A stretch of DNA of 32,000 nucleotides from an archaeon (GTDB taxonomy: Archaea; Asgardarchaeota; Thorarchaeia; Thorarchaeales; Thorarchaeaceae): contig JAJRZD010000085.1 of assembly GCA_024275415.1 (NCBI GenBank), forward strand, positions 1,727-33,726, read 5' to 3'. Position numbers and translations under genes: made by a program. Shown here piece after piece: positions 2,505-6,825 of the stretch (its first letter is position 1; every line of letters begins with the position of its first letter). A model generated the notes under the pieces. It was not told the DNA's origin, did no database searches, and saw only the letters and a program-made list of their open reading frames with translations.

Positions 2505-3203
2505 CTATGTTGGCAACAGGTGCGCAGTGTTGCAATGCTCACAGACTACTGCTTCCTCCCAGTATTCTGGAAGGGGCAATGGAGCTCCACAATTCTGACA
2601 TTTTAGCTCCTTGAGGTCTGCTCGTTCTTCGGGTGTGATATCAAGCCTGAATACGTTCTCAGCAACATCACTGATTCCCTTTCCAATCTTGGCTGCTGCA
2701 CGAGCTATTGCATTGGTTTCTGTATCTGTCAGGTTTCCAAGACCAACAGATTTGAAGAATGTGTCTATCGCTGCGCCCACTTTACTGAGGAACGCCCCAA
2801 TGGTTCGGCCTCGTTTCCAATCTCGAATCGCAGCAATATGTACTTCGATCAACTCTTCGTCGGGATGTCCAGGTATCTGATATCCCTTCTTCCATGGCGT
2901 CTTCTTGTCATGCGTTGGAGAGAGGATTTGACCACAGCTGGGACATTCAAGACGGTATTCTTTAGAGAAGAACCCTTTCTTGTGCTCTTTCTCACCATGC
3001 TTGTACCAGCAACGCTTGTGAGCTAACTTACTACAATTCGGGCACGGGAACAGATAGAACCGTTCAGGTTTATGTTTGATTGTCCTGCCCGCGACATTAG
3101 GGACATATGCAAGATCCTCAGTCTTGTAAGACAATAGGTCTCGCCCGCAAATGAAGCATGGTCTGTCCTTGAACCTGTCCATTTTGTCTGCTGTGAGCTT
3201 CAT
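2505..3203 (-). CDS. Zinc-finger protein: N-terminal C4HC3 (PHD/C1-like) finger, central helices, C-terminal zinc ribbon
   Basis: C16-x2-C19-x34-C54-x2-C57-x4-H62-x2-C65-x21-C87-x2-C90, plus C-terminal CQNC-x15-CEHC. GAGG RBS upstream. Confidence 0.75.
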   Translation of the reverse strand: MKLTADKMDRFKDRPCFICGRDLLSYKTEDLAYVPNVAGRTIKHKPERFYLFPCPNCSKLAHKRCWYKHGEKEHKKGFFSKEYRLECPSCGQILSPTHDKKTPWKKGYQIPGHPDEELIEVHIAAIRDWKRGRTIGAFLSKVGAAIDTFFKSVGLGNLTDTETNAIARAAAKIGKGISDVAENVFRLDITPEERADLKELKCQNCGAPLPLPEYWEEAVVCEHCNTAHLLPT

Positions 3204-3272: not shown

Positions 3273-3686
3273 CTATCTACTTTCCAAAACTGCACGAATC
3301 GAGTCGGCTGCCTTCTCCAGTGTCTTCCACACTTTCTTGTCGTCAATTCTTTTGAAAAAGAGGAATCTTCCGTTTCGGATTTCGGCCCCAATCCTAAACC
3401 ATCGGTTCCTAACCTTGAACTCGTGGACTGTGATGGACACACCTGACCCTTTGATTGTCGAGATTCGTGGATGATCATACCCCAGATTCTCATTTACCCT
3501 GCGCGATGTATCCGAAAGCAGAGATATCATTGCAGCCAATCTATCCCTCTGGACTAGATCTCTAGCTCTTCCCGCAACAACAAGACCTTGCTCATTGGTC
3601 ACGACGCAGTTCTTGAATGCGTAGCCAATCTCGCTCTCAAAGTCCTTGAGCACAAGGTCTAGCTTCTCAGATTTTCCCAAGCTCAT
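3273..3686 (-). CDS. Roadblock/LC7 domain protein (divergent)
   Basis: Helix, then NCVVTNEQGLVVA, helix DRLAAMISLLSDTSRRVNENLG, beta strands and a terminal helix, matching roadblock topology. ORF track start is GTG 3695; ATG 3686 follows an AGGTG RBS. Confidence 0.8.
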   Translation of the reverse strand: MSLGKSEKLDLVLKDFESEIGYAFKNCVVTNEQGLVVAGRARDLVQRDRLAAMISLLSDTSRRVNENLGYDHPRISTIKGSGVSITVHEFKVRNRWFRIGAEIRNGRFLFFKRIDDKKVWKTLEKAADSIRAVLESR

Positions 3687-3697
3687 GATTGTCACAC

Positions 3698-4159
3698 CTA
3701 TGTCATGGACTCCTCATGTAACCTGACTTCCCAAAGGCGAACGACCTCCCGGATTTCCTGTCTCAAGTTCTCAATCTCGAATGATATCAAACCGAGCTCC
3801 AAATCACGTGGGAAGATGCAAGCCAGCATTACATTCTCAGCGAGATGCTTCAAAAGGATCGAAAACGAAACCATGCCTGCATCTTCTGCTTCAATTATTA
3901 CCTGTCCAAAGCTCTTAGTGTTATTGACAAGTTTGATGAAGTCTTCTGAGATCGTGATAAGTCCAGCTGACATGCTACTGATTACAGTTTCAATGTTCTC
4001 AGGCATTGATTCATTGTTGTGTCTATGACCTAATACATATCCATCGACAGTGAAGACTGTAAGGGCCCAGACTGGTAATCTGCGGTTAAATTCCATCAGG
4101 AGCTTTCTAATCTCCAATACAGGGGGAATTATGCTCTTCTCTTGATACAACGTATTCAC
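3698..4159 (-). CDS. Roadblock/LC7 (MglB-like) domain protein
   Basis: ALTVFTVDGYVLG, SSMSAGLITISEDF, QVIIE and a C-terminal LGLISFEI helix. Starts 3 nt after the GTPase stop; alternative start TTG 4150 after AGGTGA. Confidence 0.82.
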   Translation of the reverse strand: MNTLYQEKSIIPPVLEIRKLLMEFNRRLPVWALTVFTVDGYVLGHRHNNESMPENIETVISSMSAGLITISEDFIKLVNNTKSFGQVIIEAEDAGMVSFSILLKHLAENVMLACIFPRDLELGLISFEIENLRQEIREVVRLWEVRLHEESMT

Positions 4160-4162
4160 CTA

Positions 4163-4831
4163 TCATATCTGCTGAAATGGGAGTGTGGACTCTTCGGGTG
4201 TCCTAGAAGTACGATTCATGAGGACACCCTCTATTTTTCTGAGAAGCAGAATCAATGCATCTTTGCATGACTCTTTATCCTTCGCTGACATCCCTATGGT
4301 TTCTCTCACTCCAAGCCATGTAGAGACTTGGAATGGATAAGCACTTTCAGGCAAGTCCTGCTTGTTGGCAATCACCACCATAGGCAGGTTACCAAACGCA
4401 GCTAACGTTTCTGCTAGAATGGCAGATGCATCACCTATCATTGCTGGATCCGAAGAATCCACAATTAGCAGTACACCATTGGAGTTAATGCGCATTGTGT
4501 CACGAACGAACTTGAAATGCAGCTGCCCTGGTACCCCACGGAGTTCTACCTCCTTTGCGAGCCACGCATAGTACTCGTCTCGTTCTCTCAGGAACTCGTT
4601 CTTCGGAATGATCAGACCTGCTGATTCCGCTGACTTCCTTGCCCATATGACTCTGCCAAGGTCAAATCCTGTGGTAGTCGTACTCTCTTCCCCACGATAT
4701 TGATCTCGCAGCTTCCGTTCGACCGATATCGTATCTGGGTCTAGAGTATGAATCATCGTTGTTTTTCCGGCCTGAAACGGGCCAGTCACATAGACTTTAT
4801 AGTCATATGATCGGAGGTTATGCACTGCCAT
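4163..4831 (-). CDS. Small GTPase, MglA/CvnD-like (prokaryotic Ras-like) family
   Basis: G1 GPFQAGKT, G2 region STTTTGFDLG, G3 GVPGQ (no Asp, as in the GTPGQ family), G4 NKQD, G5 MSAK. Flanked by roadblock genes. Confidence 0.9.
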   Translation of the reverse strand: MAVHNLRSYDYKVYVTGPFQAGKTTMIHTLDPDTISVERKLRDQYRGEESTTTTGFDLGRVIWARKSAESAGLIIPKNEFLRERDEYYAWLAKEVELRGVPGQLHFKFVRDTMRINSNGVLLIVDSSDPAMIGDASAILAETLAAFGNLPMVVIANKQDLPESAYPFQVSTWLGVRETIGMSAKDKESCKDALILLLRKIEGVLMNRTSRTPEESTLPFQQI

Positions 4832-4880: not shown

Positions 4881-5243
4881 TTACAGGATATCCTCCACAC
4901 TCGCTACTGCCTTTTCCATCTCAAAGTCGATGAGACCGATTTTCGCTTCTTTGGGCGCAGTGGCAATCAAAGAGGAATTTGAGAGCTTGCGGACAATGAC
5001 TGTTTTGGACTCGCCCTCGATCGTGATAGTCTTTGGCTTACCGGATTTCAAGGCTGCACCCACTCTGGTTCCAATGGAAACCAGTGCAGCAGCCATGGCT
5101 GAGATAGCCTTGTCATCAACACCTTTATGGAGTGCAGCGACCATCATCTGGCCTCTGTCACTGACCAATGCGCAACCATCGACTTCACTGTCAGCTTCGA
5201 GTTGCTTGAGTATCGTTTCGAGTTTCTTGATTTTTGCACTCAT
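4881..5243 (-). CDS. Roadblock/LC7 (MglB-like) domain protein
   Basis: Canonical pattern GCALVSDRGQMM, DKAISAMAAALVSIGTRVGAAL, TITIEG, AKIGLIDFEM. Start moved to ATG 5243 (GGAGGT RBS at 5250-5255); the extension to 5324 overlaps another ORF. Confidence 0.9.
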   Translation of the reverse strand: MSAKIKKLETILKQLEADSEVDGCALVSDRGQMMVAALHKGVDDKAISAMAAALVSIGTRVGAALKSGKPKTITIEGESKTVIVRKLSNSSLIATAPKEAKIGLIDFEMEKAVASVEDIL

Positions 5244-5254
5244 CCTTATACCTC

Positions 5255-5377
5255 CTATTTCTCGTAATGTGGGCAAGTGTCTTTTTCTTCGGCTGGGACA
5301 TAGAGCTTCTTCTTTTCGCACCAAATCAGCCCTGCAGCGTTAGATTCACCTGCATGTTTACAATCACAACTTGCCAT
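5255..5377 (-). CDS. 40-aa Cys/His-rich microprotein, probable metal-binding; not in the ORF track
   Basis: Translated by hand: MASCDCKHAGESNAAGLIWCEKKKLYVPAEEKDTCPHYEK*. ATG is 7 nt after the V4R stop with GAGGGAG upstream, and its TAG overlaps the RBS of the next roadblock gene. Confidence 0.7.
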   Translation of the reverse strand: MASCDCKHAGESNAAGLIWCEKKKLYVPAEEKDTCPHYEK

Positions 5378-5384
5378 ATCTCCC

Positions 5385-5852
5385 TCACTCCAAAGACACA
5401 GTGAAGATTGATGCGTTCAGCTCTGGTCTGTAAAGAGCGGATTCGACGACACAGGTCTTACCGAGTTTCTCATTCAGTGATGCATATAGAATAGCCATCA
5501 TCGGACAGGGAGGGATTTTTGTGACATCATCACCGCGGATTATCTTCGTGGCTGATGAGTAGATACACTCCCCGATATCGATTTTTATCCTGTCTTCACT
5601 CACTTCCAAGATTTCGCAGCGTTGAACAGCACCAGATTTCTTGATTTCCTCTTTAAATGACTCCACGATAGACTGTACATCATTCCCTTTGATGTCTAAG
5701 CCGAGAGATCCCAATAGCCCTTTAGCCTCGTTCTGAAAGGCAGATGCTATTTGCGTCCAAATTAAAGGTATGTTAAGTCCCATATTTGTCATAGCTGATG
5801 CAACTGCAACCATGACGGCATTGCTAGCGTCCATGAGCTGTCTGTATTCCAC
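5385..5852 (-). CDS. V4R / MetOD1-like small ligand-binding domain protein
   Basis: Helical N-terminus, then EILEVSEDRIKIDIGECIY...PPCPM...terminal beta strands, the V4R-superfamily pattern with conserved Cys. GTG start 9 nt after an AGGAG RBS. Confidence 0.68.
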   Translation of the reverse strand: MEYRQLMDASNAVMVAVASAMTNMGLNIPLIWTQIASAFQNEAKGLLGSLGLDIKGNDVQSIVESFKEEIKKSGAVQRCEILEVSEDRIKIDIGECIYSSATKIIRGDDVTKIPPCPMMAILYASLNEKLGKTCVVESALYRPELNASIFTVSLE

Positions 5853-6098: not shown

Positions 6099-6623
6099 TC
6101 ATTCTAACTCGGATGTCTTAGACAAAGCCTCTGATGCAATTATCTGTCTGAGGTACTTTCGAATATGATCAAGATTCCTTTCTGTTTCTTTTTGAAGCCA
6201 CGCCAGCGAACTCCTTTCCTCAAATTCGCTGTCATCCATGGATAATCTCATCCCCTCTATCTCTCTCAAGAGGCCCTCTAGTTCTATTGACACTCTACGC
6301 ACTGCAAACATAACAATTCCAGAAATTCCATCGGTGAGTTCGTACAGAACAGGCCGGCGTCCAGGACCAGAATGACTTGTAATGACTCTACTCTCAATAA
6401 ACCCAAGGCTTTTGAGCTGGGAAACTGCAACACTTATGCTACCACGAGAGTATCCAGTGAGTTCGACAAGATCGTCGGTTGATAGCGGTTTGTGTGTCCA
6501 ATAGAATTCAACCAAGAGTGAAGAAAGGATGTCCCTTGCTGCATCAGAAAGCCCAATCCACTGCAGATGTTTCCTGATGATTCTGTGAAGGTTTCTATAG
6601 GCCATTGAGTCGTGTTGCACCAT
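6099..6623 (-). CDS. Winged-helix transcriptional regulator (GbsR/MarR-like)
   Basis: HTH LSTDDLVELTGYSRGSISVAVSQLKSLGFIE, wing PGRRPVLYEL, and a long C-terminal coiled helix. Confidence 0.85.
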   Translation of the reverse strand: MVQHDSMAYRNLHRIIRKHLQWIGLSDAARDILSSLLVEFYWTHKPLSTDDLVELTGYSRGSISVAVSQLKSLGFIESRVITSHSGPGRRPVLYELTDGISGIVMFAVRRVSIELEGLLREIEGMRLSMDDSEFEERSSLAWLQKETERNLDHIRKYLRQIIASEALSKTSELE

Positions 6624-6825
6624 ATCTTACCACAGCTATTGAATACCAGAAAATCACATTTATATCTTATTATTCTATTACATTAAAAAAATAAAAAATA
6701 ACAAGTAACAAACAGAACAATTCAAGCTGACACAGTTCAAACCGAATAGGGCTAAATACAGTTCGTACACAATCAAACCGACACTTTAACGATGCAAAAT
6801 GTTTACCACTGGTGAGAGAAGGCGC

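What the first reader, a model, noticed from the sequence alone, without database searches (positions are those of the whole stretch)
5255..5377. Unannotated 40-aa Cys/His microprotein inside the GTPase operon
Seen: below the ORF-track cutoff, MASCDCKHAGESNAAGLIWCEKKKLYVPAEEKDTCPHYEK exactly fills the V4R-roadblock gap, has its own RBS, and its stop overlaps the next RBS (TAGGAGGT). Ligand pattern C4-x-C6-x-H8-x11-C20-x14-C35-x-H37. Gene callers may instead extend the roadblock ORF to 5324 and hide it. Inference: a Zn or Fe-S microprotein acting as a redox/metal sensor or adaptor subunit of the module.
Basis: partly seen in the sequence, partly recalled or inferred. Interest (0 to 1): 0.65.

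Follow-up and report, generated by a model that had tools for sequence, protein, structure and literature searches.

The report
Conserved Asgard HiPIP-like cysteine microprotein
The 40-codon reading frame is a real gene found only in Asgard archaea; it always follows a V4R/TRAPPC3-like gene at the head of a Roadblock–small-GTPase operon, and its predicted fold resembles the tiny iron-sulfur accessory subunits of glycyl-radical enzymes.

Summary
The ORF at 5255-5377 (-) encodes the stated 40 aa. It fills the gap between the upstream 155-aa gene and the Roadblock gene, has a Shine-Dalgarno-like site, and its TAG stop lies inside the next gene's ribosome site.

It is a real gene:
- Orthologues sit in the same slot (V4R-like, microprotein, Roadblock) in every one of more than 50 Asgard loci examined.
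- Median dN/dS is about 0.1, and synonymous sites are saturated.
- In 301 Asgard genomes its presence tracks the V4R-like gene almost perfectly: 25 have both, 3 have only one, 273 have neither.

It was not hidden. Public gene calls already contain it as a hypothetical protein.

Only three cysteines (C6, C20, C35) are invariant. C4, H8 and H37 are not conserved. The likely older form is C-x2-C-x13-C-x14-C.

No Pfam, NCBIfam or PDB sequence matches. The AlphaFold model (pLDDT 88.6) has 9 matches at Z≥2 among 48,161 chains. Eight of them are HiPIP-fold [4Fe-4S] proteins: HPADγ, BSSβ, a MASS small subunit and true HiPIPs.

The upstream protein does have a V4R/TRAPPC3/H-NOX fold. A complex prediction with it gave weak support.

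Best reading: an Fe-S (less likely Zn) accessory subunit of the V4R-like protein. Metal binding and sensing are untested.

The parts
5255..5377 (-). Microprotein gene, 40 aa plus TAG stop. Invariant C6, C20, C35. Nearly invariant D5, A9, N13, G16, W19, K22, K23, Y26, V27, E31, Y38.
   Evidence: ORF. (conservation). (median dN/dS 0.105). (fixed synteny). (predicted HiPIP-like fold).
5380..5391 (-). Shine-Dalgarno-like GGAGTGAGGGAG, 3-14 nt upstream of the ATG. It overlaps the stop codon (5387-5385) of the V4R-like gene, which implies translational coupling.
   Evidence: Comparable GGAG/GAGGTGA motifs lie upstream of the orthologues.
5250..5257 (-). TAGGAGGT: the microprotein stop codon fused to the ribosome site of the Roadblock gene (ATG at 5243).
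5385..5852 (-). 155-aa V4R/TRAPPC3(Bet3)/H-NOX-fold protein, the constant upstream partner. C96 and C116 are nearly invariant, and further Cys sit at variable positions.
   Evidence: No Pfam or PDB sequence hit. AF2 pLDDT 92.9. Foldseek matches: TRAPPC3 6aq3 at E 1.6e-4, PoxR V4R, H-NOX, Thor-TRAPPC3 7yh3. Alignment A4. Co-occurrence with the microprotein.
4881..5243 (-). Roadblock/LC7 protein, 120 aa from the ATG at 5243. It is the constant downstream neighbour in most loci.
   Evidence: Pfam Robl_LC7 at 1.1e-8. Synteny. The start MSAKIKKLE is conserved in orthologues.
4163..4831 (-). Small GTPase of the operon (Arf/Ras/ATP_bind_1-like).
   Evidence: Synteny.
3698..4159 (-). 153-aa divergent Roadblock-like protein of the operon.
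   Evidence: No Pfam hit. Its tblastn matches overlap Roadblock genes in other loci. A counterpart in L027 scores as Robl_LC7.
3273..3695 (-). 140-aa Roadblock-like protein of the operon.
   Evidence: Pfam Robl_LC7 at 0.0037, below the cut-off. Conserved position in Thor-type loci.

Best explanation
The ORF 5255-5377 (-) is a translated, conserved gene for a roughly 40-aa cysteine-rich protein of a family found so far only in Asgard archaea. It is co-transcribed, and probably translationally coupled, with the V4R/TRAPPC3-like gene just upstream. Most likely it is a small accessory subunit of that protein.

Its predicted fold is a minimal HiPIP-like fold, the same as the small [4Fe-4S] accessory subunits of glycyl-radical enzymes (HPADγ, BSSβ/γ, MASSβ/γ). 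It would hold one metal centre, most likely a [4Fe-4S] cluster, through C6, C20 and C35. The fourth ligand would be an N-terminal Cys (C4 here, CxxC in the older forms). Asp5 would take that role in the many members that lack the first Cys.

The V4R-like/microprotein pair would then form the input or regulatory end of the Roadblock–GTPase switch. The cluster would serve either a structural role or as a redox/O2-labile element.

Shown here: the gene is real, it is under purifying selection, it is obligately paired with the V4R-like gene, and three Cys are invariant.

Predicted only: the HiPIP-like fold, and binding to the V4R-like protein.

Inferred: the identity of the metal, the Asp ligand, and any sensing role.
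For: Gene reality:
- Orthologues occupy the same slot in all 26 genome-contig loci and in the further genome-search loci tabulated (14 of 30). Gaps to the V4R-like gene are 9-39 nt in 37 of 38 distinct pairs and 77 nt in one.
- In 25 orthologues mean pN is 0.143 against pS 0.811. Median dN/dS is 0.105.
- Entropy by codon position is 0.385 / 0.316 / 1.154. The other frames on the same strand carry stops in 19 and 25 of the 25. Cys codons alternate between TGT and TGC.
- SD-like motifs lie upstream of most of the orthologues inspected.
- The product is present in public gene calls.

Pairing with the V4R-like gene:
- Of 301 Asgard genomes, 27 have the microprotein, 26 have the V4R-like gene, and 25 have both.
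- The three exceptions are two genomes with only long-frame matches (233 and 251 aa), read as GNAT-fused forms but not inspected, and one with a distant V4R paralogue.
- The pair stays together where no Roadblock or GTPase gene was found downstream within the fetched locus, in L006 and L007.

Fold:
- AF2 mean pLDDT is 88.6.
- In an all-against-48,161-chain structural search only 9 chains reach Z>=2, and 8 of them are HiPIP-fold [4Fe-4S] proteins.
- The eight are 2y8n_B (Z 4.0, rmsd 1.8, 37 aligned residues), 9o8u_F, 4pkf_B, 9pzj_E, 3h31_A, 8z82_a, 1isu_B and 1pih. Foldseek also lists 2y8n_B and 1pih.
- The literature describes these small subunits as HiPIP-like, with a CX2CXnCXnC motif. One HPADγ cluster is ligated by 3 Cys plus 1 His (PMC12358834, PMC13450708).

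Motif:
- Spacing is C-x13-C-x14-C in 61 of 70 unique domains.
- Twelve of the 70 keep an N-terminal Cys: CxxC in 8, CxC in 3, CxxxC in 1.
- Fifty-five of the 58 that lack it have Asp directly before Cys2, against 4 of the 12 that keep it.
- Tyr/Phe at Cys4+3 is invariant. That matches a conserved HiPIP feature (PMC7462912).

Binding:
- Complex prediction of the V4R-like protein with the microprotein scored ipSAE 0.48, with 0.00 for the best of 3 controls. The tool's verdict was 'weak support'.
- That mark was reached by 58 of 80 solved complexes and 2 of 110 mismatched pairs. At scores of 0.60 or under, only 7 of those 80 solved complexes and both mismatches passed.
- The runs agree in at least 97% of contacts, and partner pLDDT is at least 76.
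Against: - No metal or cluster has been measured.
- The structural Z-scores are low (4.0 to 2.2), as expected for 37 residues, and they rest on a predicted model.
- There is no sequence similarity to Pfam HIPIP, to the GRE small-subunit families or to any PDB chain.
- Most family members have only three Cys. A complete Cys4 site is therefore the exception.
- The Asp-for-Cys pattern could be simple shared ancestry within one clade.
- The Trp that precedes Cys4 in true HiPIPs is absent here. A Trp precedes Cys3 instead.
- Small Cys-rich archaeal proteins are more often Zn-binding.
- The complex prediction is only weak support.
- No transcript, ribosome-profiling or proteomic data were available.
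Confidence: 0.55

Rival explanations
1. A zinc-binding microprotein (zinc knuckle or mini zinc finger). It uses C6, C20 and C35 plus a fourth ligand to fold, and acts as a purely structural adaptor between the V4R-like protein and the Roadblock/GTPase proteins.
For: - Three to four conserved Cys in 40 residues.
- Archaea encode many small zinc-finger proteins, for example Brz (PMC2253796, listed).
- The partner's fold family uses a structural Cys4 Zn site (Thor-TRAPPC3 and PoxR; PMC10933270).
- The same synteny and weak complex support apply.
Against: - The Cys layout is a single, often degenerate, knuckle plus two isolated Cys 13-14 residues apart. It is not the paired CxxC knuckles of zinc ribbons or rubredoxins.
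- No zinc-finger fold appears among the nine structural matches at Z>=2. Eight of them are HiPIP-fold proteins.
- No zinc-finger Pfam or NCBIfam model matches any of the 45 members, even at E<=10.
Confidence: 0.27
2. A partner-completed site. The three invariant Cys do not form a site on their own. They share a metal or cluster with Cys of the V4R-like protein (C96/C116 and variable others), so the cofactor bridges the two chains.
For: - Most members have only three Cys.
- The V4R-like partner has 4-5 Cys at partly variable positions.
- The two genes are an obligate pair.
Against: - No co-variation is seen between loss of the microprotein's first Cys and any Cys column of the partner.
- The same domain also occurs fused to GNAT proteins and as second standalone copies not adjacent to a V4R gene.
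- V4R-fold proteins normally complete their own Zn site (PMC10933270).
- The complex prediction released no contacts.
Confidence: 0.1
3. Not a functional protein: a chance ORF, a coupling or leader peptide whose sequence does not matter, or a conserved RNA element in the intergenic gap.
For: - The ORF is very short.
- No expression data exist.
- An alternative extended Roadblock frame overlaps it.
Against: - There is strong amino-acid-level purifying selection with saturated synonymous sites.
- Cys, Trp and Tyr are invariant across four or more Asgard classes.
- The domain also occurs inside long ORFs.
- There is no Rfam match.
- The Roadblock start MSAKIKKLE is conserved, and the upstream extension is not.
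Confidence: 0.02

Closest known systems
Small [4Fe-4S] accessory subunits of glycyl-radical enzymes: HPADγ C-terminal domain (2y8n_B), BSSβ (4pkf_B, 9pzj_E) and a small subunit of MASS (9o8u_F)
   Same: - These are the best structural matches to the model: Z 4.0 for HPADγ and 2.4-2.6 for the others, with 35-37 residues aligned at rmsd 1.8-2.4.
- They are tiny, cluster-built domains with a CX2CXnCXnC motif.
- They act as non-catalytic subunits bound to a larger partner.
- One HPADγ cluster uses 3 Cys plus a non-Cys ligand.
   Different: - There is no detectable sequence similarity.
- The partner is a V4R/TRAPPC3-like protein in a Roadblock–GTPase operon, and no glycyl-radical enzyme was seen next to it in the loci examined.
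- It is shorter, at about 40 aa against 51-86 aa for the chains matched.
- Most members lack the first Cys.
- It is restricted to Asgard archaea in the searches made.
[quoted passage not shown] 1pih, 1isu, 3h31; PioC at 54 aa is the smallest known
   Same: - The predicted fold matches.
- The Cys spacing is of the same type (C-x2-C ... C ... C).
- There is an aromatic residue two positions after Cys2 and an invariant Tyr/Phe at Cys4+3 (PMC7462912).
   Different: - The HIPIP HMM does not match.
- There is no Tat signal or any N-terminal extension. HiPIPs are exported periplasmic electron carriers of bacteria (PMC7462912).
- No Trp precedes Cys4.
- At 40 aa it is smaller than the smallest known HiPIP.
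- Its genomic context is signalling, not photosynthesis or respiration.
Small archaeal zinc-finger microproteins (e.g. Brz of Halobacterium)
   Same: Size, cysteine richness, archaeal origin and a likely regulatory or adaptor role.
   Different: - There is no paired CxxC or CPxCG knuckle.
- No family model matches.
- The structural neighbours are Fe-S folds, not zinc-finger folds.

Membership tests
HiPIP (Pfam PF01355) | Sequence match to the HIPIP profile | tested here: not met
   None of the 45 members matches any Fe-S family in Pfam, even at E<=10. The PF01355 search of the window's own genome finds nothing at E<=1.
HiPIP (Pfam PF01355) | Four Cys ligands in a C-x2-C-xn-C-xn-C pattern | tested here: inconclusive
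   Cys2, Cys3 and Cys4 are invariant, with x13 and x14 spacing in 61 of 70 domains. Cys1 is present in only 12 of 70. It is CxC in the window, and 58 of 70 lack it.
HiPIP (Pfam PF01355) | HiPIP fold | tested here: inconclusive
   On a predicted model (pLDDT 88.6), 8 of the only 9 chains with Z>=2 are HiPIP-fold proteins. However, Z is only 4.0-2.2 over 35-37 residues. This leans towards met.
HiPIP (Pfam PF01355) | Exported (Tat) periplasmic electron carrier | tested here: not met
   The protein is 40 aa in total and the first Cys is at residue 4, which leaves no room for a signal peptide. HiPIP export is described in PMC7462912.
HiPIP (Pfam PF01355) | Binds a [4Fe-4S] cluster | not testable with these tools
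   This needs anaerobic purification and spectroscopy.
Glycyl-radical-enzyme small subunits (HPADγ, BSSβ/γ, MASSβ/γ) | Encoded with, and bound to, a glycyl-radical-enzyme catalytic subunit | tested here: not met
   The neighbours in the loci examined are V4R-like, Roadblock, GTPase, wHTH, and HEAT-GNAT genes. No explicit search for a glycyl-radical enzyme was run.
Glycyl-radical-enzyme small subunits (HPADγ, BSSβ/γ, MASSβ/γ) | Sequence similarity to these subunits | tested here: not met
   No PDB chain matches the family profile at E<=10, although 2y8n, 4pkf and 9o8u are in the library.
Glycyl-radical-enzyme small subunits (HPADγ, BSSβ/γ, MASSβ/γ) | Small HiPIP-like domain acting as an accessory subunit of a larger protein | tested here: inconclusive
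   The best structural hit is 2y8n_B at Z 4.0. The pairing with the V4R-like gene is obligate. Complex prediction gave weak support: 0.48 against 0.00 for the best control.
Zinc ribbon / rubredoxin-like fingers | Two CxxC (or CPxCG) knuckles | tested here: not met
   There is at most one knuckle. Cys3 and Cys4 are isolated and 14 residues apart.
V4R / TRAPPC3 (Bet3) fold (for the partner gene 5385-5852) | Two-layer alpha/beta V4R fold | tested here: met
   AF2 pLDDT is 92.9. Foldseek matches TRAPPC3 6aq3 (E 1.6e-4), PoxR 5frz (2.6e-4), H-NOX and Thor-TRAPPC3 7yh3.
V4R / TRAPPC3 (Bet3) fold (for the partner gene 5385-5852) | Match to the Pfam V4R profile, or sequence similarity to the solved Thor-TRAPPC3 | tested here: not met
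   There is no Pfam hit at E<=0.1. There is no relevant PDB sequence hit at E<=10.

The most novel reading that the evidence does not exclude
The microprotein carries an oxygen- or redox-labile [4Fe-4S] cluster, and with its V4R/TRAPPC3-like partner forms the sensor head of a TRAPP-like assembly. That assembly would be a Bet3-fold protein plus three Roadblock-fold proteins controlling a small GTPase. Asgard archaea would then have a redox-gated GTPase switch built from the same folds as eukaryotic TRAPP and Ragulator, with an Fe-S subunit that eukaryotes later lost.
Probability: 0.15. Interest if true: 0.85.

Novelty: new variant of a known kind. Interest (0 to 1): 0.55.

Why it matters
Asgard small GTPases, Roadblock proteins and TRAPPC3-like proteins are studied as forerunners of eukaryotic membrane-trafficking regulators. 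Which regulator works with which GTPase is unknown. A structural study noted that in the cultured Loki strain these genes generally do not sit in operons (PMC10933270).

Here a V4R/TRAPPC3-fold gene, Roadblock genes and a GTPase form a conserved gene cluster across Thor, Loki, Hel and Hermod lineages. The cluster contains an overlooked fourth component: a 40-aa protein family with no database model and a predicted Fe-S fold.

If it binds a cluster, it gives these GTPase modules a concrete, testable input, namely redox state, O2 or Fe-S status. It would also be the smallest HiPIP-like domain known, and it would extend HiPIP-like accessory subunits beyond glycyl-radical enzymes.

It also shows that a conserved component of such a module can fall below the ORF-length cut-offs commonly used for reading sequence.

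Tried and rejected
- **Family and sequence searches.** Pfam and NCBIfam scans of the microprotein, and of all 45 aligned members at E<=10, found nothing relevant.
- **PDB sequence searches.** The profile and two four-Cys members gave only chance hits.
- **Foldseek against PDB.** Nothing was significant for a 40-residue query. 2y8n_B and 1pih were only in the weak list.
- **ESM Atlas.** Searches by features and by shape returned unnamed clusters and a weak DUF6472 lead (score 0.85), which Pfam does not confirm.
- **Atlas lead for the V4R-like protein.** It pointed to PF27323 RdxA_C, MJ0207 and ATC_hydrolase. This could not be checked because PF27323 is not in the local Pfam copy.
- **First related-loci scan.** The scan with the most diverse alignment failed for lack of a conserved stretch. 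It was repeated with closer sequences.
- **Co-variation with the partner.** I looked for co-variation between loss of the first Cys and the Cys columns of the V4R-like partner and found no clear pattern.
- **Link to the window's GNAT gene.** The GNAT gene at 1696-2355 is not specifically related to the GNAT domain of the fused forms.
- **RNA element in the gap.** There was no Rfam hit.
- **Internal signals.** Consensus scans gave no internal promoter or terminator in the gap. These are bacterial consensus patterns and so of little weight in archaea.
- **Ligand-by-ligand superposition.** Model coordinates and structural alignments are not released, so I could not check it. The correspondence with E. 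halophila HiPIP Cys33/36/50/66 rests on my memory of that numbering plus the aligned ranges.
- **Paralogue in the window's genome.** None was found.

Full report
**1. The observation**

The upstream 155-aa gene ends with TGA at 5387-5385, 7 nt before the ATG. A GGAGTGAGGGAG stretch (5391-5380) spans that stop. The ORF's TAG (5257-5255) starts the TAGGAGGT that precedes the Roadblock ATG at 5243. The alternative 147-aa Roadblock frame from TTG 5324 also exists. The exact 40-aa product is already in the public protein collection from this contig, source NCBI, so it is not hidden from gene callers.

**2. The surroundings**

The same-strand run of genes is:

| Coordinates | Product | Evidence |
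|---|---|---|
| 6099-6623 | wHTH regulator | |
| 5385-5852 | 155-aa protein | no Pfam hit, |
| 5255-5377 | microprotein | |
| 4881-5243 | Roadblock | Robl_LC7 at 1.1e-8, |
| 4163-4831 | small GTPase | Arf/Ras/ATP_bind_1, |
| 3698-4159 and 3273-3695 | two divergent Roadblock-like proteins | |

The 155-aa protein folds with pLDDT 92.9. It matches TRAPPC3/Bet3 (6aq3, E 1.6e-4), the PoxR V4R sensor domain, H-NOX and the solved Thorarchaeota TRAPPC3 (7yh3). It has no sequence match to 7yh3, so it is a different subfamily.

**3. Is it a gene?**

- **Homologues.** Six-frame searches found homologues in related genomes. A pattern scan of 185,579 species genomes found 26 loci. All are Asgard: Promethearchaeota/Loki, Thor, Hermod, Hel and Harpocratesius.
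- **Synteny.** In every locus the order is V4R-like, microprotein, Roadblock. The microprotein lies 9-39 nt after the V4R-like gene in 37 of 38 distinct pairs and 77 nt after it in one.
- **Selection.** Across 25 orthologues mean pN is 0.143 against pS 0.811 (saturated). Median dN/dS is 0.105 where it can be computed.
- **Codon-level signs.** Codon-position entropies are 0.385 / 0.316 / 1.154. The other two frames carry stops. The Cys codons alternate between TGT and TGC.
- **Ribosome sites.** SD-like motifs precede most of the starts inspected.
- **Not an RNA element.** No Rfam family matches the region.

Orthologous loci keep an open frame and conserve the Cys.

**4. Distribution and linkage**

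A full HMM scan of 1.84 billion representative proteins finds only 33 clusters at E<=1e-3. These are standalone proteins of 39-57 aa (one of 77 aa), or the C-terminal domain of GNAT acetyltransferases (156-475 aa), some with N-terminal HEAT repeats. Two further rows look like frameshifted or truncated copies, and the weakest, a 1133-aa protein, is probably chance.

In 301 sampled Asgard genomes, 27 have the domain and 26 have the V4R-like gene at E<=1e-10, and 25 have both. The two domain-only genomes carry only long-frame matches (233 and 251 aa), which I read as fused forms but did not inspect. The one V4R-only genome has a distant paralogue with no small ORF after it.

The pair persists in two loci where no Roadblock or GTPase gene was found downstream within the fetched stretch (L006 and L007). 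The V4R-like protein is therefore the constant partner. Thor-type loci often carry a second standalone copy upstream of the V4R-like gene. Loki-type loci carry the HEAT-GNAT fusion beside a divergently transcribed GTPase–Roadblock pair.

**5. What is conserved**

- C6, C20 and C35 are invariant in 45 sequences.
- D5, A9, N13, G16, W19, K22, K23, Y26, V27, E31 and Y38 are at least 90% conserved.
- C4 is Ser in 39 of 45. H8 is Tyr/Phe in 40 of 45. H37 is Phe/Asp/Tyr in 44 of 45.
- Among 70 unique domains the spacing is C-x13-C-x14-C in 61.
- Twelve of the 70 have an extra N-terminal Cys: CxxC in 8, CxC in 3 (including the window), CxxxC in 1.
- Fifty-five of the 58 without it have Asp directly before Cys2, against 4 of the 12 with it.
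- The CxxC forms occur in the most divergent lineages (Hel, and two separate families). This suggests, but does not prove, that C-x2-C-x13-C-x14-C is ancestral and that Asp may stand in for Cys1. Shared ancestry could explain the same pattern.

**6. Fold**

The AlphaFold model built from the 45-sequence alignment has pLDDT 88.6 and shows three short strands and one short helix. Foldseek gives nothing significant for so short a query. The exhaustive VIA search of 48,161 chains finds only nine with Z>=2:

| Chain | Protein | Z |
|---|---|---|
| 2y8n_B | HPADγ, C-terminal domain (rmsd 1.8, 37 aligned) | 4.0 |
| 9o8u_F | MASS small subunit | 2.6 |
| 4pkf_B | BSSβ | 2.6 |
| 3h31_A | HiPIP | 2.5 |
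| 8z82_a | HiPIP | 2.5 |
| 9pzj_E | BSSβ | 2.4 |
| 1isu_B | HiPIP | 2.4 |
| 1pih | HiPIP | 2.2 |
| 6zn8_F | chain of the VapXD toxin-antitoxin complex (unrelated) | 2.2 |

The literature describes exactly these small subunits as HiPIP-like. They have CX2CXnCXnC motifs that bind [4Fe-4S]. They act as structural or regulatory accessory subunits. One HPADγ cluster has 3 Cys plus 1 His (PMC12358834 and PMC13450708).

A conserved aromatic at Cys4+2 or +3 is a HiPIP hallmark (PMC7462912), and Y38 fits it. The Trp before Cys4 is missing. The aligned ranges against 1pih (model 3-40 on chain 32-71) would put C4, C6, C20 and C35 on that HiPIP's Cys33, 36, 50 and 66. That residue numbering is from my memory, not from a tool.

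There is no sequence-level relation to HIPIP or any other family. The resemblance is one of fold and motif only.

**7. Partner test**

Complex prediction of the V4R-like protein with the microprotein, both supplied as alignments, scored ipSAE 0.48, against 0.00 for the best of three controls. The verdict was 'weak support'.

- That mark was reached by 58 of 80 solved complexes and 2 of 110 mismatched pairs.
- At scores of 0.60 or under, only 7 of those 80 solved complexes and both mismatches passed.
- The runs agree in at least 97% of contacts, and partner pLDDT is at least 76.

Given the strong prior from obligate adjacency, I take this as modest corroboration. No correlation was found between the microprotein's N-terminal Cys state and the variable Cys positions of the partner.

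**8. Interpretation**

Most likely (about 0.55) this is a HiPIP-like, cluster-binding accessory subunit of the V4R/TRAPPC3-like protein at the head of a Roadblock–GTPase switch. A Zn-binding adaptor is the main rival (about 0.27). A metal site shared with the partner is possible (about 0.1). A non-functional ORF is effectively excluded. A redox or O2 sensing role is inference from the chemistry of exposed [4Fe-4S] clusters and from the sensor nature of V4R/H-NOX folds. Nothing here tests it.

**9. Comparison and novelty**

The family has no Pfam or NCBIfam model and only 'hypothetical protein' labels. No paper in the library mentions both Asgard and HiPIP. The structural study of Asgard GTPase, Roadblock and TRAPPC3 proteins does not describe such a component in the passages found by term search. 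It notes that in MK-D1 these genes generally are not in operons (PMC10933270).

I rate it a new variant of a known kind: a HiPIP-like mini-subunit in a new sequence family, a new lineage and a new functional context.

Other readers of this scan had already noted the same ORF and the module.

Noticed in passing
L027:545-2005 (-); also P0004, P0006-P0009, P0013, P0015, P0021: The same three-Cys domain forms the C-terminus of GNAT acetyltransferases, some with N-terminal HEAT/PBS-lyase repeats. In Loki-type loci these are encoded beside a divergently transcribed GTPase–Roadblock pair next to the V4R-like/microprotein/Roadblock genes. The domain is therefore a portable module, not only a standalone peptide.
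   Followed up: partly
L003:1498-1611 and 2385-2501; L004, L020, L023, L030, L032, L033, L035, L053: Thor-type loci carry two standalone copies of the microprotein, one about 250-400 nt upstream of the V4R-like gene and one directly after it. In L003 the upstream copy follows a wHTH-PAS gene. The window's locus has only the downstream copy.
   Followed up: partly
window 5385-5852 (-): The 155-aa partner has a V4R/TRAPPC3/H-NOX fold but no Pfam V4R hit and no sequence match to the solved Thor-TRAPPC3. Language-model features point to PF27323 'RdxA_C', the C-terminal domain of putative rubredoxins. This hints that related domains elsewhere are fused to a Cys-rich metal domain. It could not be checked because the family is not in the local library.
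   Followed up: partly
window 2505-3203 (-): The 232-aa RING/zinc-ribbon-like protein downstream of the operon has no counterpart in any of the 31 related loci compared by tblastn. It is probably not part of the conserved module.
   Followed up: partly
P0030 (44 aa) and P0033 (115 aa): Two database members match the family profile only over the first 21-24 positions and then diverge. They look like frameshifted or truncated copies, or assembly errors.
   Followed up: no
P0041 (431 aa): A 431-aa HlyD-family secretion protein is listed as a member of the 90% cluster of a 57-aa microprotein homologue. The sequences are unrelated, so this looks like a clustering artefact in the collection.
   Followed up: partly
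L007:1483-1716 (+): One Thor-family orthologue (TXT57528.1, 77 aa) has the four-Cys form plus a 37-residue Lys/Glu-rich tail. It is followed by an aquaporin-like (MIP) gene instead of Roadblock and GTPase genes.
   Followed up: no
window 6799-9012 (+): A REC–PAS–histidine-kinase gene is divergent from the wHTH regulator that heads the cluster. A REC/HisKA gene also lies near the Loki-type locus (L027:6664-7506).
   Followed up: no
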